DNA of 64,000 nucleotides from Owenia fusiformis (GCA_903813345.2 CAIIXF020000001.1:14694001-14758000), one strand, 5' to 3'. Positions 21,001-53,500 are shown, counted from the stretch's first letter. The notes: generated from the sequence alone by a model not told the origin. Made by a program: numbers and translations.

Positions 21001-24000
21001 CCAGAAGGATACCACCAAAATCAACTCTGAAACTACAAAGATCTCAAGTAAAACGAAGCCAAATGCAGTAGAAGAAAGTGCAAGCAAGCCCCGGAGTAGA
21101 GGGGACCAACGAGGAAGTGCCAGTCTACCTGACCTATACTGGTGCAATATGTGCAATAAACTTTTCCATACTCTTGACAAACTCAAGGTAACTAATTCTA
21201 ATTTATTTATGTGGTAAAATGTCATTATGACATGACCTTGTCATGGTTACCTTGGTAATGGTTTTCTGTATTTTAACTGTTTGCTCAATGCAAAAAGATT
21301 TATTTTAAAATATATGTCAAATATATATATATAGAAATAGATGATTCAGAATCTATTTTGAAAAATTGCTTTTACCTTGTTTTTACCATCCTCCGAATGC
21401 AAAGCTCCAGACATGAAGGAGGTATGAGTTCTGGAGGCCTGTGTTTGGATGATGTTATCTGAACCACTCTCACCTTTCCATATGTATAATATTTTACTTT
21501 AGACTCATTCAGCAGTACACCCGTCCATGACCCTCCACCCATGTCATAAGTGTGGCCTCAAGTTTCAGAGACAGAAGAACCTCTTCAAACATCACCTTGC
21601 AGTGCACACTGGTTTGTACTTTCTCAGATTTGCAAATTAAGCTTAAGTTTTCCACCAGTGCTTATCTGATCGTCCCAAAGTTTCCTTTTCTTGCCTTTAA
21701 TAGCAATTTTGCAGTTTTCCTTCAATTTGACATGTTTTGTTGCGTTCTACAGTAAAATAGAAAAGCCTAGTCACCCAGTTATTTTCCCTATAAATCTGTA
21801 AAACAGAGAATTAACTTGTAGAGAAATTTTATATTAATGTTTGACATGATACTTATTAATAGAGATAATAATATTTTACATAATCGTACTGTAAAAACTG
21901 TGTCTATGCTTGAATATAATTAAGGCAAACATTACTTATATCTTCATACAAATACATGTACCGGTATGTATTCTACTTGCACTGTGCATGTTTTGAAAAT
22001 ACTAATCCCCGAGGCCCCAATGTGAAAGTGACACAAGTACATAATGAATGAAATATCTGTTTTATTATTCATATATATTCCTCACTCTCGAATTTGGTCA
22101 TCACAGTAAGCTAAATGAGTAGTATGTGTTTGAAATACAGCTTCTAATTACATTACTTCCCCTTTAGATATTGAATAGGATAAACATGAGTTGACAACAC
22201 ACGCAAATTTAACCATTCAAACTTTGCAGAGGGATTTAAGACAAAGCCCAATTGGTTACATTAATATATAATGAAAATCATACCCCATTGTTCAGTTGTT
22301 CCTCCTTTCTAACATAATATATTTACAAGATAGCAATTTTAACAACAGTTTTGACTTTTTTGATTCAGGTGAAGCAGAAGAAATGGAAGTCACTCCTCCT
22401 CCAAGGAATACCTCTGTGTCCAATGCCTCCACCCCCAGGACTGGCACCCCAACAATAACAAGGACAGGCACACCCACAATCTCAAGGACATCAACACCCA
22501 CAAACCAAACCATTAAGAATGGTTCGACTAAATCTGGTAACTCTTCAGCTAAATCAAGCAAGAGATATAGTGCTACCTCTGCATTGTTAGACAATATGGA
22601 TGTTTATGGTGAGGATGAAGCCGACAGCTTTAACTGTTATAATTGTGGGCGATCCTTCCCTAACCATAGCCTCATGAATAAGCATGTCATAAAAGGCAAG
22701 TGTAAAAATGCTTCATATACTAGTTCAGGATCTCATAGTAGCAATTCAGGTTTTATGTTTGCATGTACCGTTTGTAAAAACAGGTTTCAAAGCTATGCTA
22801 TTATGTGTCGACACAGGCGCAATGAGCACCAAGTAGCTCCCAATGTAATAAGTGATGTTGATGTACTTGACTCTGATTCTAATAGTGCTGTACCCGCATC
22901 TTTCAACAATGAACGTTTAGATCTAGATCAGAATACTGCTTACTTTGCCAGCATACCTAGGGGTGTTGCAGAGAATGTTAGGTATTTCATTGATGGTAAT
23001 CAACAAGCTTTGAACCAACGTGAAATCTGGTTTAGAGAGGATGTACTAGCCATTGAGCATAAAGACAATCAGTCGGATGATGTGAACAGTATTAATTGGG
23101 AAGGTTATAATTTATTGAATGAGTTCACACCTGCTCAGATCTATGATGCATTTACAAATATGGAGATATCTGTTGGGAACTGTGCTCCCACACCCAGTGC
23201 ATTCACTGGGCATGATTACAATACACTGGCTGAGTCTGCTCAGTTTACATGTGCAGTATGCGGATGGGTGTTTCAGAGGAACAATGATTTCTGTCTACAT
23301 ATGGAAGTTCAACATGGCCTTGTAGCTCAGGAACAAGTTATTGATCAAATAAAAGAACAGGAAATTGCAAGCAATGATATTCAAAATGCAAACTTTGAAT
23401 CTGATGTTGTTCAGAGTAAATTCAGAGAAACTTGCGATCATGAATCTGAAATAGAACAAAGTATTCAAAACAATGCTGAAGAGAAAAAATGTAAAACTGA
23501 GAGACAAGTTACACACCCTGAGAAAGCTACAACCAGATCAAGGTCATTGGATAAAATAGAAGGAAGAAAACTTTCTGATGATTCAACGAAAACACGATCG
23601 AGATCACTGGAAAAGCCTGAATTGATGTCAAGGCACCAAAGTAAGTTCAAGGCTGAAACAACAGTGAGTAAATCTGAGGAAATTTATGTTTCAGTGAGAT
23701 CAAGATCTAAAGAAAAATCTTCACCGTCTAAAGGAAAAGAAGAAAAATCTGACATAAAAAGTGAGACAAGACCTGAATCTGTAGATAATCTTGACTTGGG
23801 GTTGCAGGAAATGCCAAAAACTAGATCTCAATCTTTACAAAATAAACACAGGGCTTCTTCTGTTGAAAAATCCACACGAGCAAGATCACTTGAGAAAGAA
23901 TATGATGCTAGTAGAAGGACCTCAAAGCTTAGAAAATCCAAATCTTCAGAAAATCTAACTGATGTTTTCACATTAGAGGATAAGGAAATTAATTCTAGAT

Positions 24001-27000
24001 CATTAGGGGGTACACCAACAATGGAATTAGCTTATGATAAATCCAAACGTTTGACCAGGGCTATGAAAAGGCTACGAGAAGACATAGTGGCTACTAAAGA
24101 AAAACATGAAATACCAAAGACTCGTTCAGCTGCCAGACGCATGTTTAACCATGAAGAGAGAAAGAGTTTTGAAGGCTTATTGAAAGAAAGGGATGTTAAA
24201 CCAGTAAAAGAGCCTGAAAAGACAAATGAATGTGACGGTGATCGATGTGATAAGATATGCATGGAAACAAGTGTTTCAAAGTTTGTCTGTCTTGTCTGCA
24301 GAAAAGACTTTTATGATGTCACATGTATTAAAACACATAATTGGCTGGTCCACCCAAGGCTACACTGTACATTTATGGAACTTGAGAAGAACCAGTGGGA
24401 TGTCCCCTTCTACCAACCTAATGCTCCTAAACATGGAGGAGATATTGATATAGCAAAGGAAAGCACGGAATCAGAAATATCATTTAAATCTCCTAAGCAA
24501 GCATTTGTATGTACCAAGTGTGAACATATGTCAGAATCAATGGACCAGTTTCATGTGCACATATTACAATGTGCAGGGGACAGCACAACCATTGCAGCCC
24601 CAATACCTCAAGAATATGAAGCAGTCGGAAAAACCAAAGGGAAACGTCATGGCAGTGCTAAGAAAATAAAGCGTCAAGAATATAAAAGAGGAAAATATAA
24701 GTTGAATAGATTAGATGCTGATGATGAGGAGGATGAACCTTTACTTGAAACTGTCACACCACCAAAGGCAACAAAACCATCTAGTACACAGAACAAGCAA
24801 ATGAGTGATGAGAACAAGGAAAATAAAGGTAGTGCTCAAAGTCTTGATAAAAAGCAGGAATGGGTTGCGGCAGATATGCCAATCTGCTGGGTATGTGGAA
24901 AAATTTTTGCTGGAAAAAAGCAATTCCGAAGACACAAAACTCAAGCAAAGCGATGTTTTGAAACGAGAAAGAAGTCAAAAATACAGAATCATAACCCTGT
25001 TAGAACAAAGAAAGGAGGGGCAATATTATACCAATGCGGATTTTGCCAAAGAGAATTTGCCTATGAGGGATATTTTCTGAACCATATTAAAGTATTCTGT
25101 TCCAAAAGAAAGGAACTGCTAGCCAATAGCAAAAGGCATGCTGAAGAGTTTAGGAAAATGAATGAAAATACCCCAAAATTAGTATCGAAAAAAGAAGTTC
25201 CATCCCCAATTCAAAGGAAAGCTAAACCCAAAAACAGAAATCACAAATGGAGTTCATGGTACAGAAAGAAACAAGCAAGAGATGTAAAAGAAAAGGAACT
25301 TGAGAAAGAAAAGGATATTAAGATTGCTAAAGATCAAGAAACTGTTAATAAAGTTGAAGTGAGTCCAAGTAATTCTGATGATATAAGTCTTGCAGCTGTT
25401 GCTAGAAAAACAAGACAACACAACAGAATGGACAATATTTCAAAAATAAGAGAAAATTTGATGCGTCAGTCAAAGCGATTATCAGGATTAGCTGCAAAGA
25501 GACTTCGAGATAAATCATATGATGATGTGATTAAAATGGTAAGTGAGGGTCAACTTGCTAAAGAACCATTTGCGGTTAAATCAACTGAAACACATGCTCC
25601 AAAGACAAGGGCTATGGTGAAGACTCGGTCTCCAAGTAGGACTAATAAGCTTGTGGAGGAAATTCCTGTCACGCATTTAAAGAAGAGAAGGTCTGACAAA
25701 CCTAGAAAAGTTTCTCACGTTAAGAAAAATGTGATTGCTCAAACTGTTCTCAGGAGAGTAAAAAGACGCCGCAGAACTGCACTTACCTTAGAAGGTCATA
25801 GAAGGAAGAGAGAAAAAATGAAGAAAAAGGAGGTTCCTAATAGAAGCAGTGTCATTACAGATATCATAGATGAAGTGGCTAGTGGTAAAATTAAAATTAG
25901 CCCCACCACCCAGTATATGAAGAAACTTATAGATGACAATGAACAGACAAGTAGACTTAAGTCAGATGATATCACAATTGAACAAGATCAGACTCGTACA
26001 GATATACCTCAAGACCAAGCAAAAATACCTCTAAAATCTACGCCAAGTAAACGAAAGTCAAAAATGAAAGCAGCCTTAATGAAGAAGAAAATTGGAAAAA
26101 TGAAAAAGAGTCTCAAGACAAAGAAAATAACCCAGATGTTCCAATCAAAAAAATCACTGAGGGACAGAAAACAGAGAAAGGTTCCAGAGGAGTGTATCCC
26201 AACTCTTATTCCAGATGGCATGCATAAGTTGCGTCCAAGGAGAAAGCTTCACACGCCAGACAAACCACCCATTTTACAACCAGCTTTGAAAGATATGCAA
26301 CATCTAAAGCAAACCAATGTAGAGATACAAGAAATGACAGAACCTTCAAATGAATTAATAGTGCAAAAACCTGAGGAAAGGATAAATAGACTGACCAATG
26401 ATAAAATCCACCTGGAAGTTGGTGACATTGATACGATCAAGCCCACCTCAGAAACTCATATTAAGGAAGAAGTTGAAGCCTCTAAAATTCCATTGGCAAC
26501 TATTGGAGCTGTTAAAGAAATAACGTTGTCTGAAAGTAAATCAGTAAATGAATTTGAAAAGGATTTTAAGGATCAGGTATTAGTTTCTAAAATGAAACCA
26601 CCAGAACTAAAAGTGAGAAGTGTTGTTGAAAATGTGAAATGCTTGCCAAACACAGGGATCATTCCTGATGGTGAGCAGATGCTTACAGAGTTACCTAAAT
26701 ATCCTGAGAAAAAAACAGTAACTCAAGTCGCTGTCACTGGTTCAACAACTCCCAAGAAAGATGTGTGGACAATATCTATCAAAACCAAAACCAGGCCTAA
26801 TAGAAGATACAGGCCTAAATCAACTGCAAAAACAAAAGTGGATTCTGTGGAGGAAAAAGGAAACAAAGACTCCAAGACTGATGATGGGACCAGCGATAGT
26901 ACAAATATTGCACCTCAAATCTGTAGTAATCAAGATGAGTATACAAATATAGGAGAAAATAACACTCAATCTACTGAGAATGATTCTCTAGCTATACCAG

Positions 27001-30000
27001 ACTTATATCCAGACACACTAACATCAAAGAAAAAGTCAGGTACAATACGTCTGGCAAGAAGAAGAGCAGTTGATAGTATTACTGCTGGTCTGCTTGGTGA
27101 ATCTCTTGATGATGACATAGATGCTCCTATTGTTTTTCCCATAAAGCGAAAGAGCAGGAATAATGGTTCTAAAGTTACAAAATCTGTGGAAACCAAACAA
27201 AATAAAATGCTCAAAGGAACTGTTTCTGATGAAGAAGCTAAATCTAGAGAGAAACATTGCCCACCGACTAAACATGAAAATGAAATGTTTGAAAAAACTA
27301 TGCTGCCAGAAGGTGAACTTGTGAATAAAGTAGAAACTAAATCTGATGGGATCAACAAGAAGAATTTAAGTTCAAATAAATTCCAAAAATTGAATGCTGA
27401 TATACTAAAAAATAAAAAACAACATGATCATCACAATAAGTTCTCCAAGTTAACAGAGTTACATATTGATGTACATCAGTCGGGGGATCATAATGAGTTT
27501 CATGGTAGCATGATAAAGCAAAATGACAGAATAAGGTCTCCTATAATTTCACCCTCTAAAAGGTACATTACAATTAATTCAACAGATAAGATTAGTCCTG
27601 AGGAACATGAGCCAGGCCCAAAGTATGTTTACACCAAGAAAACAACCAAAGTGAGTGCACCCAACACTCCAGATTTGTTTGAGGACTCTGATCCATACAG
27701 CTTCTCAGAAAAGCAAAGTGACATAGAAAAGTCACCTGTTATATCACCTTCTAGACGATATCATACCTTAAATTCAACAGGAAAGGTTAGTCCTAAGGAA
27801 AATGAGTCAGGACCAAAATGTATGTACACCAAGAAAATGACCAAAGTGAGTGAGCCAAACACTTCAGAATTAATGGCAGACTCCAATCCATACAGCTTCT
27901 CAGAAAAGCAAAACGACAGAGAAAAGTCACCTGTTATTTCACCTTCTAGACGATATCATACCATTAATTCAACAGGAAATTTTAGTCCTAAGGAAAATGA
28001 GTCAGGACCAAAATGTATGTACACCAGGAAAATGACCAAAGTGAGTGAGCCAAACACTTCAAAATTGGTAGAAGACTCTGACCCATTTAGCTTCTCAGAA
28101 ACAGAAGGTAGAGGATGTTCTCCTCTTGGGAAATATAGACATCTGGAGCATCTGAAAATGAATGACAAGGAAAGGAGAAACATGGCAACTGTTATCAAAG
28201 AAAGTTTGTCTAAATTTGACAAGAATAAATCACATAAGAAGGTTGAATGCCCATCTAAGGAAGGCACCAAATGTGTACCATCCAATGTAAAAGACACTTC
28301 CAATCAAGATGTCACCAAACAGCCACCTATAAATGAACATAAATTAGTGCATTCAGCATCTATTAGCAATGTAAGTGATACAGAAGCTAATTCAAACAAA
28401 CAGCCACCTATACAAGAGCATAGAATAGCACATACAACTGTACTTAATGTTGTTACTGACACAGATACGAAAACAAACACAAGTTATAATGCCAAAAGTG
28501 GTGAATCCTCATCAACACAGTTATCACCAATTGTATTGTATCATAAGGAGATGCTTCAAAAGAGAATACGTCATGACTTAAAGAGACATAACATAAGGAG
28601 ACAAAGTGTTCCACCGAGTGTGGGTAATAAAGCTGAATCAGCATGGAGGGAGCCTTGTACTAAAAAACCTAGTCTCAATTCAAGTGAGAAACAATCCAGA
28701 GTAGAATCTCCTTCACCCCCTGTTTCTGTACCATGGAAACAAGTGCTCAATTATGAAACAGGTAAACTAGAAGATGAAATATCAGCATCTGATAGTCCAA
28801 CAATTACATTGAATGAAAAGACTGGACTTCTAAATGTTGAAACATCTTCTCTACCTGCACAAGCAATACCATCGAAAACTGTTACCAAACCATCAGATGC
28901 TGTAGTACAACCAAGTGATCTTGTATACATGTACCAAGCTCCAAAAGTGTCTCCCAGGGAATGCTCCATTTCATCTACTGGTAGAGTTCGGACCAAAGCC
29001 GAGAGAAAACAGATGCACTGGCTGTTACAAAACCAAGATAATGCTCAGCTCCAACAAATATCAGATGTAAATACAAATGAAATACCTCAGGTTGTTGCTT
29101 TAAATGATGATGTTGATATAGACCCAGCCTTTGATGATACCAAAACAAGGGTCGCCAATTCACATGATGACACAAGAGGGAGGAAGCACAAAAGAAAACA
29201 TAACACAAAAGCAAAACAGGTGACTAAGCATTCTAAAATGGATAAATGTCATTCTGCAGCATCGGAAATACCTACACATGGCAATAAAACAGACAATGGC
29301 AGTGCTGAAGAAGAAACTGTTGGCGTTCCAGTGGATTTGAAAGATGACAATATTAAGAAGGATGAAGAGTCACTGGTGAGCCCAGCTTTATCGGTAGAAA
29401 ACAACTGGGAGACTACACATCTTCAAATGCTCACTAGGCATGAAATCATGTGGCTGAATAATCAATTAGACAGTAAAGAAAAACCTGAAGAAAGAAAAAA
29501 GGCTGATGGTATCAATTTGAATAGAAAAAAGGCTCCTGCAAAGGTTGAAAAGACTGTGAAAAGACAAACTAGTTTGAAGAAAACAAAGCAAAGCAAGCAG
29601 AAAATTACAAAGATGTTTAAACAAAAGAAACCAAAAAATAGAAGTATTCATGATAAAACTGAAAAGTCAACCAAAACCTTTGACATAATTGAGGAAAATG
29701 TGAATCGTATAAATGCAGCTAAGAAAGATGGTGCTTCTGATCCAATAAAGGCTGCAATAGAATCTGGAGTTGAGTCATACAATAAAGATCATGTAAAAGA
29801 AAAAAGAAAGCCAAGGATAATGTATGCAGATTCAGACGATGAGGCACCAGTTTATAGAAATATATTTGAGATCACTACTGTTGAAGGGAAAAGAAGAAGA
29901 TCTAAGCCCAACACTGCTATAGCTGAAGATAACAAACTTGCAAGACGCTTGGAACGCAATATGTGGAAAATGATCAATGACACAGACAGTGATGGAGATC

Positions 30001-30284
30001 GGAAATCTAAAAAGAGAATGAAGAAAGTAACTAAGAATAAGAGAGTTGAAAGTATAAACAGTTTAAATTTAGCTTCAAGTGAAGGAGAGGAGTTTGGTAC
30101 AAAAATGGATAAAAAGCATAGTGCTAGTGAAAGTCATGGAGTTGATGAGAGTCATGGAAAATGTACTTGTACTTGTGAAGATTCTTCTGTAGTGTTAGAT
30201 ACTACTGACAAAGACATGGATTCAGTGTCTATATCCTCAGGGGAAACTATCATAAATACTGATTTAGTTCAGACATCATTATAA
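15008..30284 (+). CDS. PRDM2: PRDM2/RIZ-like PR/SET-domain zinc-finger protein, 6 coding exons, about 3154 aa
   Basis: Exons 15008-15152, 15418-15524, 19400-19558, 20159-21187, 21503-21611, 22369-30284 (9465 nt, frame continuous; the last junction rebuilds an HTGE linker). PR domain EVELKPSQVDNTRLGAW..FGPFVGE..YAWE..NWMRHVNCARYYEEQNL..IFYKVIKNINPNEELLTWY. Ten dispersed C2H2/C2HC fingers. PRDM2-like blocks VAENVRYFIDG and CTKC...FHVHILQCA. Confidence 0.85.
15627..18616. mobile_element. Kolobok-like MITE interrupted by a LINE
   Basis: Imperfect TIRs AGAATGGGTATCGATATGGCGAAC / GTTCTCCATATTGATACCTATCCT-TTAA. A second copy starts at 63108. Confidence 0.8.
15759..17994 (+). mobile_element. 5'-truncated L1/Tx1-clade non-LTR retrotransposon (RT plus C-terminal CCHC), frameshifted
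   Basis: RT motifs NTDYKIL, LDFTKAFDSIEW, RQGCPVS, SQSADDT (the Y/F of the YADD motif is replaced by S), YLGI; C-terminal CSIC..DLKHILFEC; frameshifts near 16355-16400; AATAAA at 17965 and an A-rich tail; 19-bp TSD aacaatataatttgaaata at 15740-15758 and 17995-18013. Confidence 0.93.
19615..19772. repeat. Dispersed repeat; second copy at about 46132-46290
   Basis: Both share catggggtctatgg..., aattaaattttcaaagttga and tttacatgtagatttcaaatatga. Confidence 0.75.
27534..28100 (+). repeat. Three tandem 195-nt (65-aa) coding repeats within the PRDM2-like last exon
   Basis: SP(I/V)ISPS(K/R)RY...D(S)(D/N)P(Y/F)SFSE occurs three times; aagtcacctgtt at 27729 and 27924. Confidence 0.92.
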
Positions 30285-32615: not shown

Positions 32616-34257
32616 TTAAGGATTGGTTTAACAAATCAGTTAAGGCAAAAGAAAACCCTAGTTTCTGGTCATCCCTATGTTCACCAGGCAATCACTGTTT
32701 TAACACAATTAAGTGTAGCAGACAAAAAACACATACATGTATTTACGCATTTGATAGAATGCTAGTAGAATTCTTGGGTAATCTGTACAATATTTATCTG
32801 GCATGTAAAGCCAAACCCAGGATTTTGATGAGGATATAAGTTGGCAAACTTTTCAAATCCATCAACTTCAAATAATGTCAGATTAAGAACAAATATTCTT
32901 AAAATACTCTATATTACACTTAGTTAGTATAAGTAAAAGAAGGGGAAATGTGTATGTGCCCTTTTTAAGTGACCTTACAGTATGTGTCATTTCCACTAAA
33001 TAAGGCCAGTTAGAAAGAAGCTGTAATTGGATGTACATATCAGGTTCTTCTATCAATTTGTCAATATTACATGATTCTTACAACCATCAATAACAATATT
33101 TTACAAATATTACAGTATTGTTTAGACATGATTCACAATGAAGAAACATCTTATTTAACACATCACATTATGTTATTATAGCCTACTGTAAAAGTAGCAA
33201 TTCTTTAAGATTAATTTTCGTGATCTTACCAATTTTTGAAAATTAAAATTTTTATTGATTTGGTCAAATAAAAAGTCATGATGAAATTTATTTGACCTTA
33301 TTTGACAGATATATGGGCAGAGAAAAGTATTTTTGCAAATTTGTATACAAATAGGGTGCTATTAACTGATTAATAATTTTTATCAACACATAATTCCATG
33401 CACATAAAAATTCCTACTTTACAGTAAGCTATACTACGTTCACATATGCATGTAACAAGCTTAAAACTATCAAACAAGGCATTAACATGCAAAATATCAC
33501 CACACCTACCATTTGTTACACACTGAACACCAACCAACCAACACCAACTGCCAAACACCATCCGTAAAAATGTTTGAGACTATTAATAATAATATGTCAC
33601 CAGGTGGACTTGAAAATTATAAACCTTCTGAAATCTGAAAGTTTTTAAACCATCCATCAGAAATAAAAAGTTCTACCTTCCATTTGGCATTCATGAGCAA
33701 GAGCAACCCATTTGCCTCATGATTTTATTGAATTATTTTGTCAAAACTTTTTCTCATTGGATTCAGATTACATTTAATGTTCATACAGTAGAACCTGTGT
33801 AAGAAGAACACCTTCAGCACATCAAAACATTATACCACTTGGGAAGTGTTTCACTTATAATCGGTAATGGAGGTTTAGTATAACGTGTAATAGGACTTTG
33901 AAATGTTGTGGTGTTCTTTTACAGGTATTACTGTTACTATTGAACATGTTGAATAATCCAATCAGACCATTTGGGTGGCTTATGCCTTCCTAAGAGTTAG
34001 GTAGGAGAGTCTGAACATATTAAGTGTTTCCTGATCACATTTCATTTTCATTTGGCACTAAACACACAGTCGTAAATTAGACAAAATGAGTTGAGCGCCA
34101 TAGTGAGGGAGGATGTGATTGCTTTTTTCCCCCACTCATTTTGTCTAATTTACAGCCGAGAAACAGCTGGATGAGGACACAGTTTCATCTGATTCATTGA
34201 GAGTGTACTCTGAGTCATCCTGTCTGAACATACAGACATATAGTGTCTCAGTCCTGA

Positions 34258-37200
34258 TCATATTTCATTTTCATTTGGCATTATACAGTTGGATGATGAC
34301 ACAGATTGGTCTGATCCATTGAGAGTGTTTTCCAAGTCATCCTGTGTGAAATTTTGTATGTCAAATTGTCCAGTCTCTTCTCCTAAAGCAACCATCCCAT
34401 CCTGTATAACATCTAGGTGATCCAAGCTCACTCTAAAATCACTAAAATTTGACCCATTGCTGGATAATGGTGATGTGTCAAGATGGTGTGGCTGTGTCTC
34501 TGATAAAGGAGATGTGTCAATGATGAGATTTCTACTAAAATCAGGTTGGTTCATAGCGAGAGATGTTATATCATTAAGATGGGTTCCACTCAGAGGTGAC
34601 CTAGCAAATCCTGTTTGTCCTGATTTGATGAGTGGTGTGTTATAGGTGAACACAGTCTGAGCTCCTTTGACTGGAGATGTATCATATGGCTCTAGAATCA
34701 CCTCTGCATTCTCATTACTTGGGAATTCATTGACAGACATATGAATATGAGACTCTGATGCACTAGAGGTATCACTGTGAATATCTAACTGATCAATATT
34801 TGGTAGATTCGGTTCAAAGCTTGGCACATGTACATTTTGGCTGTCAGTTGTTTCACATGTATGCTGTGGACTATGGTTGTTTTCAGCTGCTACAGCTTGG
34901 AGGTGAACAGTGCTACCAGTGGATGTTGTCTCACCTTCTTCCTCAACTTCGCAGCAGTTGTGCATCAAATCAGGATTACGTGAGCAGAACCTGGGGGTAA
35001 GAAATGTATTTTTTAATAATCCATTTATTCAGTTGAAATTTAGATTAAAATAAAAGCTCTGCAAGTCCAATGCAATACCTTGATAAAACTTTGTTTCTCT
35101 TATTTCCTCTTTCTGTTTTAATCTAGAAACTTACAGTAGCTTATAAAACATGCAAAATGTCCACACCTGTCAATTGTTACAGTTGCCGACCACTGAACAC
35201 CAACTACCAAAAGCTGAACACTAACCGCCATAGGCCTAGGTTAACTACTGTAGTAATCCATACATAAAATTCATACATATGTATGGATTGCTACAGTACT
35301 TAACCTGGGCCTATGCTAACTGCCGAATACCATCCACCCGTGGTGATGACATAAAATGATAACTATAAAGGCATTTAAAGATTGGATGGATTTTCGCTAT
35401 CAATATCGTTCTTCCAACTCAAAGGTTTTACTATTGTCATAACATCATTGTAATAACTTCAGAGCTTCCAATATTGCAACTACAATTTCTCTAACTTCTA
35501 ACATTGTTTAAATTTTTTCAACACATCAGCTCAGGCAACAGGTTAATTGCATAACAATATTTCATACCATTTGTCTGGAAGCTCTGATGTATTGACTCCA
35601 GGGGGCAACTTCCTCCACTTATTGCAGAGATCACATTGCACCCAGTTACTGTGGAACACTAAGATGGGGTACCTCTGACGGAAGGCACTGTGCCCAGCTT
35701 GGTAGTGATGGGAATGGGTCTTGCGACGTTTGTAAGAGCGAGTGAGCTTTGGAAGCTGAAAAACAAATGACATTATTTTAATGCATGAAAATATTTTTGC
35801 ATGATGACCTTGAACAGTTGAAAGTATGATTTCTGTACAAAATTTAATTTTGATCAATACATGAATGACAATACAGTTTCAGTATCAACTGCATGAGATG
35901 ATCATAATAGAGATGCATTAACAAAATATTTGATAGTTTTATCAACAACAAAAAGTATTGCTGCAAGAATCTAATTGGGATACAATATACAAACATTAAT
36001 AACCTAATTGGTAATGCCACATAATTTTGAAGCATTAAAAAATCATCTTTTGTGATAAGTAGGAAAAAAGAATTAAACTTAAACCTTGCGCTTGAGTTTG
36101 GCTCTAGGTCTAAGTCGACTGGGCATTGGCTCTATGAGGTCAGCTTTTAGCTTCTTTCTTACACCTCCATACTTCCAGTCTGGATTTTCCCGTCTTCTTT
36201 CAGCCATCTCTTCTATGAACTCCTCTCTGAAGATATGAATTACATCAAATTATGGTTAGAACTTTGTTCCATACCTGGTTATGATGAGCTTATTGGTTCA
36301 TCTTGCAGGTTGATATAAGGAGACAATTTGACTTTAAGCCACTACAAAATGTTTTCAGAACAAAATTATTTTTACATCATCAGTCATGTCTGTATGAGTG
36401 GTTTTATTTTTTGATCATATTCCTTTTAAATCTTACTCAAATGGTCTCTTCTCTTTGTCAGATAACTTTCTCCACTTGGATCCCAATATTCTGGATATTT
36501 CTCTGTTATCCAAGTTTGGGTGCTCTGTGGCAATGTCTTTGCGGAACTTGATAGAGAATCTAATGAAGCCATTCTTGGGTCGTTTAGGATCAACTGTTTG
36601 GAATAAACAGAAAAAGTGTCAAAAAGCAATGACAATGGACAACGAATATTGTCATGAAGTATTAAGCAGTAGTTTGATTCACTTCCATATTCAGATATTA
36701 GTTCTTTAAAGTTGAATTTTCTTGTCAACATCACAAAATATACAAATTGAAATAATTCAATTTCCATATTTCAATTACATGTACTGTATTTACAAACAAT
36801 CCATTTTTCAAATTTTTTAAAGCTACACTAATCTTTGAATATGAGCATAAGTGTTCATAGTATAAAGGATGATTGAGATGTTGTACCTTAAGGCCTACCT
36901 GTGTCTGAAGCATATTCTAGAGGGGAATGTGTGATAATGGGATGGTTCCAATGTCCCATCAAGGCTTGCTTGATCTGTTCTTGTACTACATTGATGAAGT
37001 TTGCAGCTTCATCTAACACAGTTTCCTATAAATGAAAGCAGACAGTGAAATCAAAATAAATCTAGAAAGGTAGGTACTTATCTCAGAACAATACTGATCC
37101 AGCATGTGCACTTTCTTCAGTAAATGAATCACAAATGAATACTAATTGTGCAGCCATTCATAAACTATCATGCAGATTTATGATAAAACTTTCCATCAAC

Positions 37201-38790
37201 TAATAAGCATATTTAATATATTGTATGAATAAATTCTACTTGATGTAATAACTCATTTACCTTTGTTATTGGAGATATGTTTGGTATGTATGGGATATTG
37301 CACCTTGCCTTTGGTACTAATGTATTGCGAAGTCGTGTTATTGCAGATTGACTTTCTATGTCCCTTTCTTCAAGCTGCACCTAAAGACAAAAAAATAAAA
37401 CATTTCTTTGTTAATATCAAATGAAATTGATCTTCCAAGATGCCTAAAAATTAGGTGACAAATGCAAGAATAAAGTTACAGTATACTTATATGGAAATGA
37501 CCATGAGTCCATGACACATTTATGCTTCATAATCAAACAAAAAAGTTGGTGTCACCAACTTCGTTTAGAAAACATTTTGATCCCTATGTTCAGGAATAAG
37601 AGAGTGGGTGAAAAAGAGACCATCAGATTTTTTAAATTTGCACACTGTAAAGTTAAAAAATTATAATCAATTTTAAGAAAATAAAAATCTTAATCACCAT
37701 CTTCAATTTTTTGTATATTTTGTCTCTATGTATTCACAAAAATGTGATCGGCACCAACAATGATGCATCTGATGCAAGCACAATACAAATGTGTATCACA
37801 TTGTATTAAAAAAAACAATAGTAGATTCCTTCCTTACCTCAGTAGTTTCATTTCCTGTATGTAAGTGGCCAAATTCTTCATCAACAATCACATATGGGTG
37901 ATGCTCAAGTTTGATATTTTGCTCACTCTTTGGATCATATGAATTAGTAGATGCTGCCTCTGCAATAGTTGGAGATGGAAAACTTAAATCTAGAGGACAT
38001 TTAGCTGCTGCTACTGGAGCTGATGCATCCAGTCCACTGTCCTGACTCTCAGTCTGGTCTGCTTGTCTGCCATCAACTGGATCTGTGGGACTATAAGGAC
38101 TGCAGTCCAGTTGGGACAGTTCTTTGAAAAAATCCTCCTCACCAAAATCATCATGCACATCATCTGCTGTAGCTTCTGCCTCTTCTGGCGCTGTTTGAAT
38201 GGGATCTAAAACAAAAGTCTGTAAGCAGTAGATGTTTTCTTTCCACCACCCTCCAAATTTCAGTTCAATACCATTGAAACAGCGACCCCTGAGACGTAAG
38301 AGCAAGTTGTAACAGCTCAGCTGTGGTGGGGTGACTCTTATGGCTCTAGTAGAGCATCACCCCCCCCCCCCCCTCTAACCAAACCAGTCTGACCCATTTT
38401 TTTATTAGTCGAATCTGAAATGCCATAGATCTACAATGTCAAGAGGAGACAGTGGTGGATCCAGGGTAGGGATGCGTGCCCCCCCTCCCTGGGCCAGAAA
38501 GGTTTTAACTTCTTTCAAGTGTGATGAGATGACGGAAATGCAGAATCAGCTCATTCTAGCGAAATGCATGTCATGGACAGAACAGTGGTTGAATTCTACA
38601 ATCCATGCTTTGGGATTTAAAGTTAGTAAAAAGACTGTTACTATTTATTACCAGGTGACTGACATAATGGCCATGAATTTATCTGAACTGCTGACTCAGC
38701 CAGTGACTGACACTGACGCACCTGAAACACATTCTTTAGACCAATGTTTAGACACCTACCGTTTGCGCTTTGCCATTCTGTTTGCTCCAT
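34258..38790 (-). CDS. Putative transcription/chromatin regulator with HLH-like segment, HMG box and CW-type zinc finger (MEIOSIN/BHMG1-like architecture), 8 exons, about 621 aa
   Basis: Exons 38790-38760, 38205-37838, 37380-37261, 37025-36899, 36593-36437, 36226-36085, 35755-35568, 34990-34258. All introns are GT-AG with matching phases (1866 nt). HLH-like: [145 protein letters not shown]. The first exon is the least certain. Confidence 0.85.
35229..35315. repeat. Short near-perfect intronic hairpin
   Basis: cataggcctaggttaactactgtagtaatccatacat / atgtatggattgctacagtacttaacctgggcctatg. Confidence 0.75.
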
Positions 38791-39110
38791 TTTATACTAC
38801 AATGTGTCACAATACTTTATCGCAAACATATTAAAAGGATAAATCCGTGCAACAGCTATAAATAAAGATCATGAGAGGATAGACATGTCTACAGCCAGAA
38901 GGGCAGACGACGCTAAAATATGGGTCATGACAAACAATGTATGTTCTGATATTACACTTTGAGACAAATACACATAATAATCATAATATATTTTGAGAGT
39001 ATAACCTTTTTTATAAACTTTGATAATAGCATCTCTTATAATAGAGACGAAATTGAGATTACGAGAAGTGAAAGAAACTAAACGAGCTAATCTTAGATAC
39101 AGTCTGTCAC

Positions 39111-50500: not shown

Positions 50501-53500
50501 CAAGTAGCGGCAGAATTCATCAATTTGATCAAGTCTTTCAAGTGCCTCTATACTTTTTATTGTCTAAATCGTATTGCACATCCCTATAGATCGTTAAAGT
50601 TCACCCCTAGTCCCCTATAGATAGTAAAACTTACCAGATAAATAGTGAAAACAAACTTCGTCAATCCATAAAGTTCCAGGATGCACCGCGGTAGACAAAT
50701 TTTAAAATTCCCGGCTGTTGGATATTCCCAGAATGCATCAAACCGGAAATGAAACTTTGGCATAAAAATAACGAACGCAGAATAAAATCCAAGTATGTTT
50801 GTCTTCCGCACATGGCATTAAATAGAAAATAAGTTGTATTCTATACAGATTAAGCAGAACATTACAACTATAAGCACGAGAATTGCAAATAGGAGAGACG
50901 AATCGCGAGTCAAGGTAAGGTGAAAACGAGTGAAAAATATTTTTTTGGTAAAAATTTCAAATCGTGAGTTCAAGTTTTCAACTCGATCAATTGATTTTTA
51001 GGACAAATGCGAGTAAAACTCGAGTACACGAGTCAGTCTTCCAACCACTAATCATTATTGACTATATCAAAACATTTCCCCATGTTTTGCTAAACATGGA
51101 AAGTATATATATATATGATTATAGCTATCACATCAGGATAGAAAAGGTTGGCCAGGAATGTTCCTCTAACAATTAATCTAACCCTAACTCTAGTGAGCAG
51201 AGTCAACATGCTTCACTGAATTTAAAATCCTGCAATACCTTCTTTTTGCCTGGTCTATGGCTGATGTAGCCTCCTCATTGGCCTGCCTCGCCTGCACTCG
51301 TTCTTGAATTTCTTTCTCCTTTATAGACTTCTCTTTGGCATATTTTTCACTTCTCTCAGCCCTGAAATTAACGAATACTAGATATGTAGCAAGTCCCATA
51401 TCTCCTTATAAATAGCACTACATTGTATGTTTGCAATTGTATAGAAATAAAACATAAGTATATACTATTCTATACTATAATAAATTTGTCAATGGTCATG
51501 TTAATACCTATCTCTAGCAATTTGTGCTTTCACTCGTTCTCTGGCAAGCCTGGCATCCTCTTTATCTTTCCGTAGCTGTTCTTTAATGTCATTCTGTTCT
51601 CTGTCCCGTTGCCACTCTCTCAGTTTCCCAACACTTTGTCCTTGCTTCCTACGCTCAATCTCTCTCTGCTTTGCTTCCTCTTTCTCTTTGAGGGCCTTTT
51701 CTGCTTGCTTCTGTTGAATCAACTGTTTTGCTCTAAAAAACATTTCGCATCACTTTTGATCGCAAATGATTTTTTGTTAAATGATACAATTGGCCAAATT
51801 ATCAATGGATTGAATTGGATTTTTGACAGGTCTCAGTGTTTTCCCCCAAAATTTTCAACTGGGTGCAATTTTCAAGTCTGAAAAAATCGACGCCCACTAC
51901 ACCCGCAATATCACCCACCGCAAGTGGGTCCTTACTTCACTCATTTTGCAAATCAGAAGTTGGAGTGCAGGGTGCTAATTTGGGGGCCTTTGGTTTCAAG
52001 TAGAGGGCCCCCCCTGGTAAAAGTGACATGGGGAGATCACTGGGTCTTTTGAGAGTCACACTGTTAACTCTTAAATATCTTTTCATAGTGAAGAGCCCTA
52101 TATTGTGGTTCAGCACAGAGTAAATGATTGCCCATTGGGTGTTGATCAATCACAGATAAGGTAAAATAATTCCATCAAAATTAGTTTAATAAATCTGATA
52201 AGTTAAACATACAATTTGCATTTATAATGTATGCCAATCGGTCAAAACATTTAATATCACATGAATAATCTTTACAAATTTGGTTTAAAATCAACAAACC
52301 TTTCAACCTTCTCTTCTTTACTTAATGCAGATGCTTGACTTTGTGTTGGTTCTGTTGTATCATCTGCAGGAGGTGATTCAGCACTATTAGCTACTGGGGT
52401 AGTGGCAGCATCTGCAGAAGCAGCCTCTACAGGTGGAGTTACGATGTTGTCATTTGTGGGAGGTGATATGTTTGCTGATGATGTAGTAGGGGGACTCTCA
52501 ACTTGCTTTGAAGTGGTATCAGGGGGAGTCTGAGCAGTAGCACTAGCACCAGAAGCAGTTTTCTGAGATTTGAACATCTGCAAGTAAAATAATAATTTTT
52601 TAAATGAACGTCTAAGATGGGTCCTTCTGTACTTCTCCACTAAACATTCATTGTGGTATGGATTAGTGCAAATAAATGTAACTTTAAGGAAATGAAGGAT
52701 GATTTAATTTTGAATAGTGACTCAGGTTTTAATGAGACAAAATATAGAAATGATACGAGGTGACAAAATTGATCCATCATGATGCTTTCTTATCAAAATG
52801 TTAAGTTCTTGAAGTTGTAATTATTTTGTGACTTAAAATATATTAATCCTGTTCCTTATGTATTCAATTTCCCAATGAGATTCTACACTAATTTACTTCA
52901 TAAATAGTCCCCATACCTGGATACAGACTTTACCTACCTCACTGACATTCCTCAGTTTTTCAAGTAGAACCTTTGGTTCTAAAAACCCAGCAAGGACCTC
53001 TAATGGAACACCATTCTCACCAATAAAGTAGCAAGATGGTACAGTTAATACTGGATCTGAACCATTGTTAAGAAAATCCTATTCAATATTTTCCCCATTT
53101 ATTTATTTTTTTTTATTTTTATTTATTTATTTATTCATATATATTTCAACATCAAATGTACAGTAAACGGGTGACACTTCTCGTGTATATTCCCGTGTTT
53201 ATAATCATGAAATGTACAGATTGGGGATCTGCTTGTGTGATGAATGCTACTATCTATGTCTGACTAAGAATGTGTCATATAATGCCCACTATGGTTATCT
53301 GAAATTGATATTATTGATTGATAAAATATTTTTTCAATTCTTTTTTCATAATAAAAATACTTCCAGATGATGTTATTTCAATAGGTAATGAATTCCAAAT
53401 TGATGGTGCAGTAAAAGATATCAAGGCTTCACCATAATTTGTTCGAATTTTGGGTTTGTCATAGTTTACCCTATTTCGGGTGTTGTAAGCATGTCTCTCT

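What the first reader, a model, noticed from the sequence alone, without database searches (positions are those of the whole stretch)
34258..38790. Hidden gene joining HLH, HMG box and CW zinc finger: candidate invertebrate MEIOSIN/STRA8-type regulator with a built-in histone reader
Seen: eight exons splice in frame to about 621 aa, with an acidic N-terminus, an HLH-like segment (37380-36899), a full HMG box (36593-36085), a complete four-Cys CW finger with the cage tryptophans (35755-34940) and an acidic tail. The HLH and HMG exons are missing from the ORF track or shown in the wrong frame. Established: the HLH+HMG combination is rare and characterises the vertebrate meiotic initiator MEIOSIN (BHMG1), partner of STRA8; CW fingers (ZCWPW1, MORC3/4) bind methylated H3K4. 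From memory, MEIOSIN's HMG box has NGFI like this one, not the Sox-type NAFM, while DNR-IS-ILG and PDWK recall HBP1/CIC/BBX. Inference: this may be an undescribed germline or meiotic-entry factor coupling DNA bending, dimerisation and H3K4me reading. I know of no named protein with all three domains.
Basis: partly seen in the sequence, partly recalled or inferred. Interest (0 to 1): 0.88.

Follow-up and report, generated by a model that had tools for sequence, protein, structure and literature searches.

The report
Conserved HLH–HMG–CW transcription factor gene
This is a real, transcribed annelid gene from an unstudied family found across bilaterian animals; the family joins a dimerisation helix pair, a Sox-like DNA-bending box and a MORC3-like reader of methylated histone H3, and it may be the missing invertebrate relative of the vertebrate meiosis starters MEIOSIN and STRA8, which I could not test.

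Summary
Eight GT-AG exons on the minus strand join in frame to 621 aa. The window is Owenia fusiformis. The gene is already deposited as an unnamed, partial 446-aa protein that shares exons 3-8. RNA reads confirm junctions E5-E6, E6-E7 and E7-E8. Pfam confirms a full HMG box and a full CW finger. The CW is 58% identical to MORC3's and keeps both cage tryptophans.

The HLH is real for the family. Amphioxus members pass Pfam's threshold, and the family profile hits 29 (b)HLH chains among 31 PDB hits. In Owenia itself it is very divergent: 7.1 bits when left out of the profile.

Orthologues with the same order of domains occur in nemertean, molluscs, brachiopod, millipede, hemichordates and amphioxus. 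All are uncharacterised. No vertebrate member was found.

I could obtain no MEIOSIN or STRA8 sequence, so the MEIOSIN/STRA8 link rests on architecture, complementary distribution and two weak leads. The tissue of expression is unknown. My verdict is a new variant of a known kind, interest 0.65.

The parts
38760..38790 (-). Exon 1: start codon and first 10 codons ([10 protein letters not shown]), phase-1 donor GT
   Evidence: The deposited protein P0001 begins with the same ten residues. No junction reads were listed for this intron.
37838..38205 (-). Exon 2: acidic, probably disordered N-terminal region. P0001 uses an alternative internal acceptor at 37959.
   Evidence: Open frame and AG acceptor. 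RNA depth of 1.4 in run X12 over 37933-38274. 23% D+E. pLDDT below 50. No significant similarity to amphioxus or Haliotis N-termini.
37261..37380 (-). Exon 3: acidic stretch where a basic region would sit, then HLH-like helix 1 ([12 protein letters not shown]) and a loop
   Evidence: The leave-one-out profile aligns P0001 residues 56-102 in register. AF2 with the HLH alignment gives a helix at 2-28 of the 68-aa stretch.
36899..37025 (-). Exon 4: HLH-like helix 2 ([22 protein letters not shown]) and a short linker
   Evidence: Helix at P0001 residues 95-114 with pLDDT 64-82 in the full-length model. Helix at 37-67 of the stretch. The family profile hits bHLH structures.
36437..36593 (-). Exon 5: HMG box helices 1-2 ([10 protein letters not shown]...[16 protein letters not shown])
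   Evidence: Pfam HMG_box 4.1e-17 on this exon alone. Junction reads to exon 6. pLDDT 94-98.
36085..36226 (-). Exon 6: HMG box helix 3 (NPDWKY) and the conserved basic extension [16 protein letters not shown]
   Evidence: Completes HMG_box positions 1-69 of 69 in P0001. The extension is nearly invariant in the family. Junction reads to exons 5 and 7.
35568..35755 (-). Exon 7: basic linker and first half of the CW finger ([14 protein letters not shown]; both cage Trp, Cys 1-2)
   Evidence: Pfam zf-CW 7.3e-10 on this exon alone. Alignment to MORC3 CW. Junction reads to exons 6 and 8.
34258..34990 (-). Exon 8: second half of the CW finger ([19 protein letters not shown]; Cys 3-4), a long acidic tail rich in S, T and N, and the TGA stop at 34258-34260
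   Evidence: RNA depth of 2-4 in X12 over 34171-34854. pLDDT 35-45 in the tail.

Best explanation
The locus is a genuine, spliced, low-expressed protein-coding gene of the annelid Owenia fusiformis. It is the annelid member of a conserved, so far undescribed bilaterian family of nuclear factors.

From N to C the protein has:
- an acidic disordered region;
- a divergent helix-loop-helix without a basic region;
- a Sox/SRY-class HMG box with a conserved basic C-terminal extension;
- a MORC3-type CW zinc finger;
- a long acidic, Ser/Thr-rich disordered tail.

Most likely mechanism: the HMG box binds and bends DNA in the minor groove in a sequence-selective way. The CW finger docks on the methylated Lys4 tail of histone H3, so the factor is held preferentially at H3K4me-marked (promoter) chromatin. 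The HLH pairs the protein with itself or with another HLH protein. The acidic tails recruit co-activators.

Shown here: gene structure, transcription, domain identity, conservation of the histone-cage residues, and conservation of the architecture across phyla. Inferred: DNA binding, H3K4me binding, dimerisation and the activator role. The biological process is not established. A germline or gametogenesis role akin to MEIOSIN/STRA8 is the leading guess but is untested.
For: Gene model: seven GT-AG introns, in frame, 621 aa. The deposited protein has the same exons 3-8. RNA junction reads support E5-E6, E6-E7 and E7-E8, with strandedness fitting the minus strand.

HMG box: Pfam HMG_box 69.6 bits against a gathering score of 25.4. 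The nearest solved boxes are SRY/SOX2/SOX9 and CIC. The predicted structure has pLDDT 94-98 and matches Sox17, Sox9 and SRY bound to DNA with target-normalised TM-scores of 0.77-0.85. The residues aligned to SRY's KRPMNAFIVWS read [11 protein letters not shown], keeping the Asn and the Phe-Ile pair.

CW finger: Pfam zf-CW 60.5 bits against 27.5. It is 58% identical to MORC3 CW, with rmsd 1.2 A over 48 columns to the MORC3-H3K4me3 complex 5svx. W271, Q273 and W280 of P0001 align to MORC3 W410, Q412 and W419. A review passage names W410 and W419 as the cage and W410 and Q412 as beta-sheet hydrogen-bond partners. Both Trp are kept in 23 of the 26 family CW domains I aligned.

HLH:
- 3 of 3 amphioxus members scanned pass Pfam HLH (23.3, 21.9 and 21.8 bits against 20.7).
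- 6 of 22 members hit HLH at E<=1.
- A profile of 12 family HLH stretches finds 29 (b)HLH chains among its 31 PDB hits, the best being USF1 at 1.7e-5.
- Clade-left-out scores are 11-43 bits for the other clades and 7.1 bits for Owenia.
- AF2 on Owenia's stretch, given the alignment, predicts helix 2-28, a loop, and helix 37-67 at mean pLDDT 72.

Family: the same domain order (HLH, HMG, CW) appears in Lineus, chiton, oysters, millipede, hemichordate and amphioxus. The HMG-plus-linker tree puts all 25 family rows in one clade (100/99), apart from 3 Sox-type rows.
Against: - Owenia's own HLH gets no Pfam HLH hit at E<=10. Against a profile of the other 13 members the full protein scores only 2.7 bits, and 6 of 2000 shuffles reach that.
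- In the full-length model helix 1 is short and of low confidence.
- There is no basic region in Owenia; the stretch before helix 1 is acidic.
- The fold searches with the HLH model gave only generic helical hairpins.
- No binding of DNA, of histone peptide or of a partner was measured.
- The CW was lost or degraded in scallops and octopus, so CW reading is not indispensable to the family.
- Only about 35-46 reads per roughly 12 million were laid, and the tissue is unknown.
Confidence: 0.6

Rival explanations
1. The family is the invertebrate pro-orthologue of vertebrate MEIOSIN (and perhaps of its partner STRA8). It acts in germ cells to switch on the meiotic programme. The ancestral factor carried an H3K4me-reading CW finger that vertebrates lost.
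For: - Same rare order of domains: N-terminal (b)HLH, a long disordered linker, then a C-terminal HMG box. Mouse MEIOSIN has its bHLH at residues 10-70 and its HMG at 484-534, and STRA8 has a bHLH plus an HMG-like domain (passages of PMC13637641). In this family the HLH-to-HMG gaps are 102-484 aa in amphioxus, hemichordate and bivalves.
- Complementary distribution. The family was found in amphioxus, hemichordates, spiralians and a millipede but in no vertebrate. MEIOSIN orthologues are reported from vertebrates only, and the authors state that they did not look at more distant species.
- The ESM feature search lists a chordate 'meiosis initiator protein' cluster at 0.83, fourth among the sets shown. 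That is a lead only.
- A 2013 paper reports an amphioxus reciprocal-best BLAST hit of human STRA8 at 8e-9 (passage). A B. floridae v1 model of this family is named 'BHLH domain-containing protein'.
Against: - No MEIOSIN or STRA8 sequence could be obtained, so there is no alignment, no tree and no profile comparison.
- By HMMER the family's HMG box is closest to SoxB/SRY-type boxes. The only non-family single-box proteins among the best 150 hits are 3 Sox-type proteins.
- The domain descriptions of MEIOSIN that I read name no CW finger.
- I do not know whether the amphioxus STRA8 hit of 2013 is this gene.
- No germline expression was shown.
- HLH plus HMG could have been assembled twice.
Confidence: 0.3
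2. It is a lineage-conserved Sox-like developmental or somatic transcription factor unrelated to MEIOSIN. The HLH+HMG resemblance is convergent, and the CW finger simply targets it to active promoters.
For: - The HMG box is nearest to SRY/SOX2/SOX9 and CIC.
- The ESM neighbours at 0.88 are LEF1-like and HBP1-like clusters, both somatic factors.
- The reads come from RNA runs of unknown tissue.
Against: - The family forms its own clade, far from the 3 Sox-type rows (branch lengths 2.6 and 4.7).
- It is 42% identical to SRY over the box, and the Sox signature RPMNAFMVW reads RPKNGFIRF.
- No Sox, CIC or HBP1 protein has an HLH or a CW finger, to my knowledge (recalled).
- A strictly testis-specific 'sry' gene of a freshwater snail might be a family member. 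This is an unverified lead from Table 1 of PMC13023353.
Confidence: 0.35
3. In Owenia the 'HLH' has decayed into a plain helical linker. The Owenia protein works as an HMG+CW factor only, without HLH-mediated pairing.
For: - No Pfam HLH hit.
- Leave-one-out scores of 2.7 bits (whole protein) and 7.1 bits (stretch alone).
- No basic region.
- A Pro-rich 17-residue loop.
- Low-confidence helix 1 in the full-length model.
Against: - The weak match lies at the expected place, 17 residues upstream of the HMG box (22 in Lineus, 47 in chiton).
- It is in register with the family's L..L...P and A..[YF]I motifs.
- Only 6 of 2000 shuffles reach its score.
- Helix 2 is predicted at pLDDT 64-82 without help from a good alignment.
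Confidence: 0.25
4. The eight-exon model is a chimera of two neighbouring transcription units (exons 1-4 and exons 5-8).
For: Junction reads were listed for only 3 of 7 introns, all within exons 5-8.
Against: - The deposited model joins exons 1-8.
- All phases match.
- HLH, HMG and CW occur in one predicted protein in Lineus, chiton, oysters, millipede, hemichordate and amphioxus.
- The exon 2-4 bins have RNA depth in the same read orientation.
Confidence: 0.03

Closest known systems
MEIOSIN (BHMG1 / Gm4969), vertebrate meiosis initiator
   Same: An N-terminal (b)HLH and a C-terminal HMG box separated and flanked by long disordered regions (mouse bHLH at residues 10-70, HMG at 484-534; passages of PMC13637641). 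The bHLH serves partner binding rather than being the core activity. The phyletic distribution is complementary to this family's.
   Different: The descriptions of MEIOSIN that I read name no CW finger. Sequence relatedness was not tested here because no MEIOSIN sequence was obtainable. MEIOSIN is known only from vertebrates. Expression and function of the Owenia gene are unknown.
STRA8
   Same: A bHLH followed by an acidic (Glu-rich) region and an HMG-like domain; it pairs through its bHLH. An amphioxus reciprocal-best BLAST hit of STRA8 was reported in 2013.
   Different: STRA8's HMG-like domain is described as putative, whereas this family has a canonical HMG box at Pfam 59-70 bits. No CW finger is named for STRA8. 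I could not check whether the 2013 amphioxus gene is this family.
SRY/SOX HMG boxes
   Same: They are the nearest solved HMG boxes: family profile 60-62 bits to SRY and SOX2, with 40-45% identity and target-normalised TM-scores of 0.78-0.85 to SOX2, SOX9 and SRY on DNA. The Asn and Phe-Ile positions of SRY's KRPMNAFIVWS are kept.
   Different: The signature reads RPKNGFIRF instead of RPMNAFMVW. Identity to SRY is 42%. The family forms a separate clade. It has HLH and CW domains and a conserved [10 protein letters not shown] extension that Sox proteins lack.
MORC3 / MORC4 CW zinc finger (H3K4me3 reader)
   Same: The CW is 58% identical to MORC3's, with rmsd 1.2 A to the MORC3-H3K4me3 complex. 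Four Cys and the residues equivalent to W410, Q412 and W419 are conserved.
   Different: No GHKL ATPase or any other MORC domain (no such Pfam hit). Here the CW sits 32 residues after an HMG box.
CIC, HBP1 and BBX HMG boxes
   Same: CIC scores 58.6 bits, HBP1 51.3 and BBX 40.5 against the family profile. An HBP1-like cluster is an ESM neighbour at 0.88.
   Different: No AXH domain, C1 domain or other family-specific domain. None of them is closer than Sox.
ZCWPW1 (CW + PWWP, meiotic reader of PRDM9 marks)
   Same: It uses a CW finger to read H3K4me3 in germ cells (recalled). Its CW scores 55.6 bits against the family profile.
   Different: It has no DNA-binding domain and has a PWWP domain. 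Its CW is less similar than MORC3's.

Membership tests
HMG-box proteins (Pfam PF00505) | A full three-helix HMG box scoring above Pfam's gathering score | tested here: met
   69.6 bits against 25.4, profile positions 1-69 of 69. pLDDT 94-98 with three helices at 142-157, 163-176 and 179-199. 22 of 22 family members hit.
CW-type zinc finger (Pfam PF07496), H3K4me-reading subclass (MORC3/4, ZCWPW1/2) | Four zinc-binding Cys plus the two cage Trp (MORC3 W410 and W419) | tested here: met
   60.5 bits against 27.5. Residue-by-residue alignment to MORC3 with the Cys and both Trp conserved. The cage residues are named in PMC10612106 (passage). rmsd 1.2 A to 5svx. Binding itself was not measured.
Helix-loop-helix (Pfam PF00010) | HLH profile match above the gathering score (20.7 bits) | tested here: not met
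   Owenia P0001 has no HLH hit at E<=10. The family does better: 3 amphioxus members pass (23.3, 21.9, 21.8 bits); Lineus scores 16.6, an oyster 17.1, a hemichordate 16.3 and the millipede 13.0, all below threshold.
Helix-loop-helix (family-level homology) | The Owenia segment is homologous to the HLH of its orthologues, and that HLH resembles solved bHLH domains | tested here: inconclusive
   The profile of 12 stretches (Owenia included) finds 29 (b)HLH chains among 31 PDB hits, the best at 1.7e-5. Owenia left out scores 7.1 bits (stretch) or 2.7 bits (whole protein), and 6 of 2000 shuffles reach that. AF2 predicts helix-loop-helix at pLDDT 72 with the alignment. The fold searches were non-specific.
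bHLH DNA-binding class | A basic region N-terminal to helix 1 | tested here: not met
   In Owenia the preceding residues are [12 protein letters not shown], which are acidic. Amphioxus has a basic stretch, ERLYRRHSALRKDFMRKQ.
MEIOSIN / BHMG1 orthologue group | HMG and bHLH domains group with vertebrate MEIOSIN in a phylogeny or profile comparison | not testable with these tools
   No MEIOSIN sequence was returned by any search. The only trace is an ESM cluster name at 0.83.
MEIOSIN / BHMG1 orthologue group | An N-terminal bHLH plus a C-terminal HMG box in one protein | tested here: met
   The order HLH then HMG holds in Owenia and in 15 further family proteins. The MEIOSIN layout comes from PMC13637641. 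Owenia's HLH is weak (see above).
MEIOSIN / BHMG1 orthologue group | Expression at meiotic entry in germ cells | not tested
   The RNA runs that were laid are of unknown tissue. The Owenia ovary and testes data of PMC9977687 sit in supplements and a repository that I could not open.
SOX family | An HMG box at least 50% identical to SRY with the RPMNAFMVW signature (criterion recalled) | tested here: not met
   42% identity to SRY and 45% to SOX2 over 69 columns. The signature reads RPKNGFIRF. The family forms a separate clade.
MORC family | A GHKL ATPase module N-terminal to the CW finger | tested here: not met
   No HATPase_c or MORC hit in P0001 or in any of the 22 members.

The most novel reading that the evidence does not exclude
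The bilaterian HLH-HMG-CW family is the pro-orthologue from which vertebrate MEIOSIN arose, and possibly STRA8 as its duplicate. The ancestral animal meiotic-entry factor would then have read H3K4 methylation directly through a MORC3-like CW finger, a module later lost in vertebrates, scallops and octopus. Invertebrate meiotic initiation would be controlled by a single self-contained DNA-plus-histone reader.
Probability: 0.3. Interest if true: 0.9.

Novelty: new variant of a known kind. Interest (0 to 1): 0.65.

Why it matters
Each of the three domains is well known. Their combination in one protein, conserved from annelids to amphioxus, carries no descriptive name in the databases searched (only 'uncharacterized', 'hypothetical' or automatic labels), and my paper searches found nothing on it.

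It would be a compact example of a transcription factor that must see both a DNA motif and a histone mark.

A 2026 paper on MEIOSIN states as open when the MEIOSIN-STRA8 axis arose, and says that more distant species were not examined. A bHLH+HMG gene in amphioxus, hemichordates and spiralians is the obvious candidate. It makes that question testable with an alignment, a synteny check and gonad expression data that already exist for Owenia. How meiosis is triggered in most invertebrates is, to my knowledge, unknown (recalled).

Tried and rejected
1. Getting MEIOSIN or STRA8 sequences. None returned such a protein, so no HMG or HLH tree with MEIOSIN, HBP1, BBX, CIC or TCF could be built.

2. 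The exhaustive search used a profile without an intact CW (scallops plus annelid fragments plus window exons 5 and 6, alignment A3) to avoid crowding by MORC proteins. Its best-150 list was instead filled by 120 proteins with two or more HMG boxes.

3. Complex prediction of two copies of the Owenia HLH stretch gave no verdict (score 0.02, alignment not used).

4. Foldseek with the HLH model gave 3 rows, all with E above 7. VIA-align against 48,161 chains gave a best Z of 7.5, all generic helical hairpins, with no bHLH among the 50 shown. Two-helix models are too simple for these tools.

5. The ESM Atlas search with amphioxus P0010 gave no usable hit.

6. The look-up of sequencing runs listed no holder on record as RNA. 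X1 and X2, guessed to be RNA, cover introns and behave as DNA.

7. The N-terminal acidic region shows no significant similarity to amphioxus or Haliotis members (E of 1.5 or more).

8. Paper searches for six orthologue locus names gave 0 papers. The search on zf-CW, HMG, HLH and germ was swamped by clinical 'hMG' and 'HLH' papers.

9. Earlier findings of this scan: three look-ups, nothing.

10. A 'sry' gene with strict testis expression in the snail Bellamya could be a family member or a SoxH gene. I could not tell and did not use it as evidence.

Full report
**1. What is in the sequence**

On the minus strand of 34258-38790 there are eight exons: 38790-38760, 38205-37838, 37380-37261, 37025-36899, 36593-36437, 36226-36085, 35755-35568 and 34990-34258. 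All seven introns begin with GT and end with AG. The joined reading frame is 1866 nt, giving 621 aa and a TGA stop.

Two domains are cut by introns and become whole only after splicing. The HMG box spans exons 5 and 6, and the CW finger spans exons 7 and 8. Scanned alone, exon 5 gives HMG_box at 4.1e-17 and exon 7 gives zf-CW at 7.3e-10. In the spliced deposited protein they cover Pfam profile positions 1-69 of 69 (69.6 bits) and 1-46 of 47 (60.5 bits). Chance does not produce this.

**2. Source and public record**

The translation of exon 5 is 100% identical to a deposited protein, P0001, of Owenia fusiformis ('unnamed protein product, partial', 446 aa).
- P0001 has the same exons 3-8 and the same first ten residues.
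- It joins exon 1 to an acceptor inside exon 2 at 37959, which leaves out 82 acidic residues.
- It ends 93 residues before the stop codon.

**3. Transcription**

Of the four runs I laid, X1 and X2 cover introns and behave as DNA. X12 and X13 are RNA-seq raw reads of 2026, of which about 6% of each run was read.
- 46 and 35 reads were laid, mostly on exons.
- The first mate is on the + strand, as expected for a minus-strand RNA in a stranded library.
- Junction reads are 36437|36226 (3 in X12, 1 in X13), 36085|35755 (3 in X13) and 35568|34990 (3 in X13), all with CT..AC ends.
- The four upstream junctions had fewer than three reads and were not listed.
- Reads also lie in 38446-38616, inside intron 1, so the 5' end is not settled.
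- The tissue of these runs is not known to me.

**4. HMG box**

Against solved structures the family profile scores as follows:

| Solved HMG box | Bits |
|---|---|
| SRY, SOX2 | 60-62 |
| CIC | 58.6 |
| SOX9 | 57.6 |
| SOX30 | 52.7 |
| HBP1 | 51.3 |
| BBX | 40.5 |
| HMGB1 | about 31 |

The AlphaFold2 model has pLDDT 94-98 over the box. It matches Sox17, Sox9, SRY and Sox2 bound to DNA at target-normalised TM-scores of 0.77-0.85 with 37-45% identity.

The stretch aligned to SRY's KRPMNAFIVWS reads [11 protein letters not shown]. The Asn and the Phe-Ile pair are kept; these are, as I recall, the base-contacting and intercalating positions of SRY. Sequence-selective bending is therefore the likely activity.

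A conserved extension, [15 protein letters not shown], follows the box and is nearly invariant in the family. I read it as a basic tail or nuclear localisation signal, which is an inference.

**5. CW finger**

P0001 residues 269-316 align to the MORC3 CW without internal gaps apart from two residues. All four Cys are kept, and W271, Q273 and W280 sit opposite MORC3 W410, Q412 and W419.

A review passage states that W410 and W419 form the cage and that W410 and Q412 make the beta-sheet hydrogen bonds. It gives MORC3-CW a Kd of 0.6 uM for H3K4me3 (PMC10612106, passages).

The model superposes on the MORC3-H3K4me3 complex 5svx at rmsd 1.2 A over 48 columns with 58% identity.

Across the family, 26 of 29 proteins have a CW hit, and 23 of those 26 keep both Trp. 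Lottia has lost the first Trp and the two scallops are degenerate. Two octopus proteins and one truncated gastropod model have no CW.

**6. HLH**

This is the weak point for Owenia and a solid point for the family.

Evidence at family level:
- Six of 22 members hit HLH at E<=1.
- Lineus scores 16.6 bits, below the gathering score of 20.7.
- All three amphioxus members I scanned pass: 23.3, 21.9 and 21.8 bits. One old B. floridae model is named 'BHLH domain-containing protein' by UniRef.
- A profile of 12 HLH stretches (alignment A4, Owenia included) hits 31 PDB chains at E<=10, of which 29 are (b)HLH proteins: USF1 at 1.7e-5, TAL1 at 2.6e-4, then USF2, MyoD, ID1, TCF4, Twist and MITF among others. 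The other 2 are an antiporter-like protein.
- The family HMM also picks up HLH segments in two proteins that were not used to build it, a hemichordate (6e-4) and a millipede (5e-5).

Leaving each clade out of the profile in turn gives these scores:

| Clade left out | Bits |
|---|---|
| Oysters | 32-43 |
| Scallops | 25-43 |
| Amphioxus | about 23.5 |
| Chiton | 17.7 |
| Lineus | 11.0 |
| Owenia | 7.1 |

Evidence for Owenia itself:
- P0001 gets no Pfam HLH hit even at E<=10.
- Against the whole Owenia protein the 13-member profile scores 2.7 bits. Six of 2000 shuffles reach that.
- The match is at the expected place and in register (L..L..P, loop, A..FI).
- Owenia has no basic region.
- In the full-length AF2 model helix 2 (residues 95-114) has pLDDT 64-82, and helix 1 is short and of low confidence.
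- With A4 as the alignment, the 68-aa stretch folds as helix 2-28, loop, helix 37-67 at mean pLDDT 72. That result leans on the orthologues.

**7. The family**

Searches found proteins with HMG box, conserved linker and CW in:
- Lineus (nemertean);
- Haliotis, Lottia, Pomacea, Nucella, Babylonia and Gigantopelta (gastropods; a truncated Batillaria model has the HMG box only);
- Liolophura (chiton);
- Solemya, Crassostrea and Saccostrea (bivalves);
- Lingula (brachiopod);
- Chamberlinius (millipede);
- Ptychodera and Glandiceps (hemichordates);
- three Branchiostoma lineages.

Scallops have a decayed CW and octopus has none.

The HLH lies N-terminal to the HMG box in 16 proteins, with gaps of 17 to 484 residues. 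The gap from HMG to CW is always short, 12-43 residues.

A tree of the HMG box plus linker puts all 25 family rows in one clade (100/99), apart from three Sox-type rows. Inside the clade, hemichordates, amphioxus, oysters with scallops, caenogastropods and octopus each group together, as expected of orthologues. Deep nodes are unresolved, and the millipede sits on a long branch.

No vertebrate, tunicate, echinoderm, insect, nematode or cnidarian member was seen. The searches are limited by shared words or by the 150-row list.

**8. The MEIOSIN/STRA8 idea**

From passages of Shimada et al. 2026 (PMC13637641):
- STRA8 has a bHLH (17-84), a Glu-rich region and an HMG-like domain.
- The two proteins bind through their bHLH domains.
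- MEIOSIN orthologues were traced through vertebrates down to hagfish.

The architecture and the complementary distribution make this family the natural candidate for the pre-vertebrate counterpart.

Two further leads:
- The ESM Atlas lists a chordate 'meiosis initiator protein' cluster at 0.83, after LEF1-like and HBP1-like clusters at 0.88. All are under the 0.9 mark, so they are leads only.
- Rodriguez-Mari et al. 2013 report an amphioxus reciprocal-best BLAST hit of human STRA8 at 8e-9 (PMC3769385, passage). I could not tell whether it is this gene.

Against the idea:
- No sequence comparison was possible.
- The only single-box non-family proteins in the best 150 of the exhaustive search are Sox-type (a tunicate, a pipefish 'Sox-14-like' and one unnamed) at 67-74 bits. 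MEIOSIN's box is therefore not obviously closer to the family than the best Sox boxes.
- No CW is described for MEIOSIN.
- Expression is unknown.

I put this reading at about 0.3.

**9. Mechanism proposed**

The protein is a nuclear factor that recognises a DNA motif through the HMG box and bends the DNA. It is stabilised on H3K4-methylated nucleosomes by the CW finger, it pairs through the HLH, and it activates transcription through its acidic tails.

Gene structure, domains, cage residues and conservation are shown. All binding and the activator role are inferred.

**10. Limits**

They may already answer the expression question.
- Complex prediction gave no verdict.
- Fold searches on the two-helix model were uninformative.

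Noticed in passing
window 19400-30284 (+): The neighbouring gene on the other strand looks like a PRDM-type zinc-finger gene. It has PR/SET-like exon pieces (19400-19615 with NWMRHVNCARYYEEQNL; 20117 onward with NPNEELLTWYEK), then C2H2 fingers, then a single open exon of 2669 codons (22275-30284). Pfam gives only sub-threshold C2H2 hits. The giant exon explains the AT skew of 0.29 at 24-30 kb. The PRDM assignment rests on motifs recalled from memory.
   Followed up: partly
window 35197-35367 (intron 7 of the gene): Depth in the two DNA-like runs rises to 18 and 46, against about 14-18 in most flanking bins. Reads have loose ends at 35280 and 35317, and RNA reads also fall here. This is probably a repeat or transposable-element insertion.
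   Followed up: no
window 37420-37590 (intron 2): RNA reads lie here in both orientations, with loose ends at 37520-37554, and DNA depth is raised (29.6 in X1). This is another repeat inside the gene.
   Followed up: no
window 38446-38616 and 38788-39100: There is RNA depth inside intron 1 in the gene's read orientation, and opposite-orientation reads lie upstream of exon 1. This may reflect an alternative 5' exon or an unspliced precursor, plus a divergent neighbouring transcript.
   Followed up: no
window 58181-59815 (+), also 15755-17835 (+) and 53314-54123 (-): The first ORF is a reverse-transcriptase ORF (RVT_1, 2.2e-31). The other two long ORFs have no Pfam hit and may be decayed retroelement pieces.
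   Followed up: partly
P0193 (B. floridae, 1341 aa) and P0189 (B. belcheri, 1416 aa): The long amphioxus gene models add a DUF4587 domain (about 62 bits) downstream of the CW finger. This is probably a fusion with the neighbouring gene in those annotations.
   Followed up: no
P0097 (millipede Chamberlinius, 660 aa): The millipede member carries a weak MATH/TRAF-like match (about 18 bits, below threshold) N-terminal to its HLH. This is either a gene-model fusion or a lineage-specific addition.
   Followed up: no
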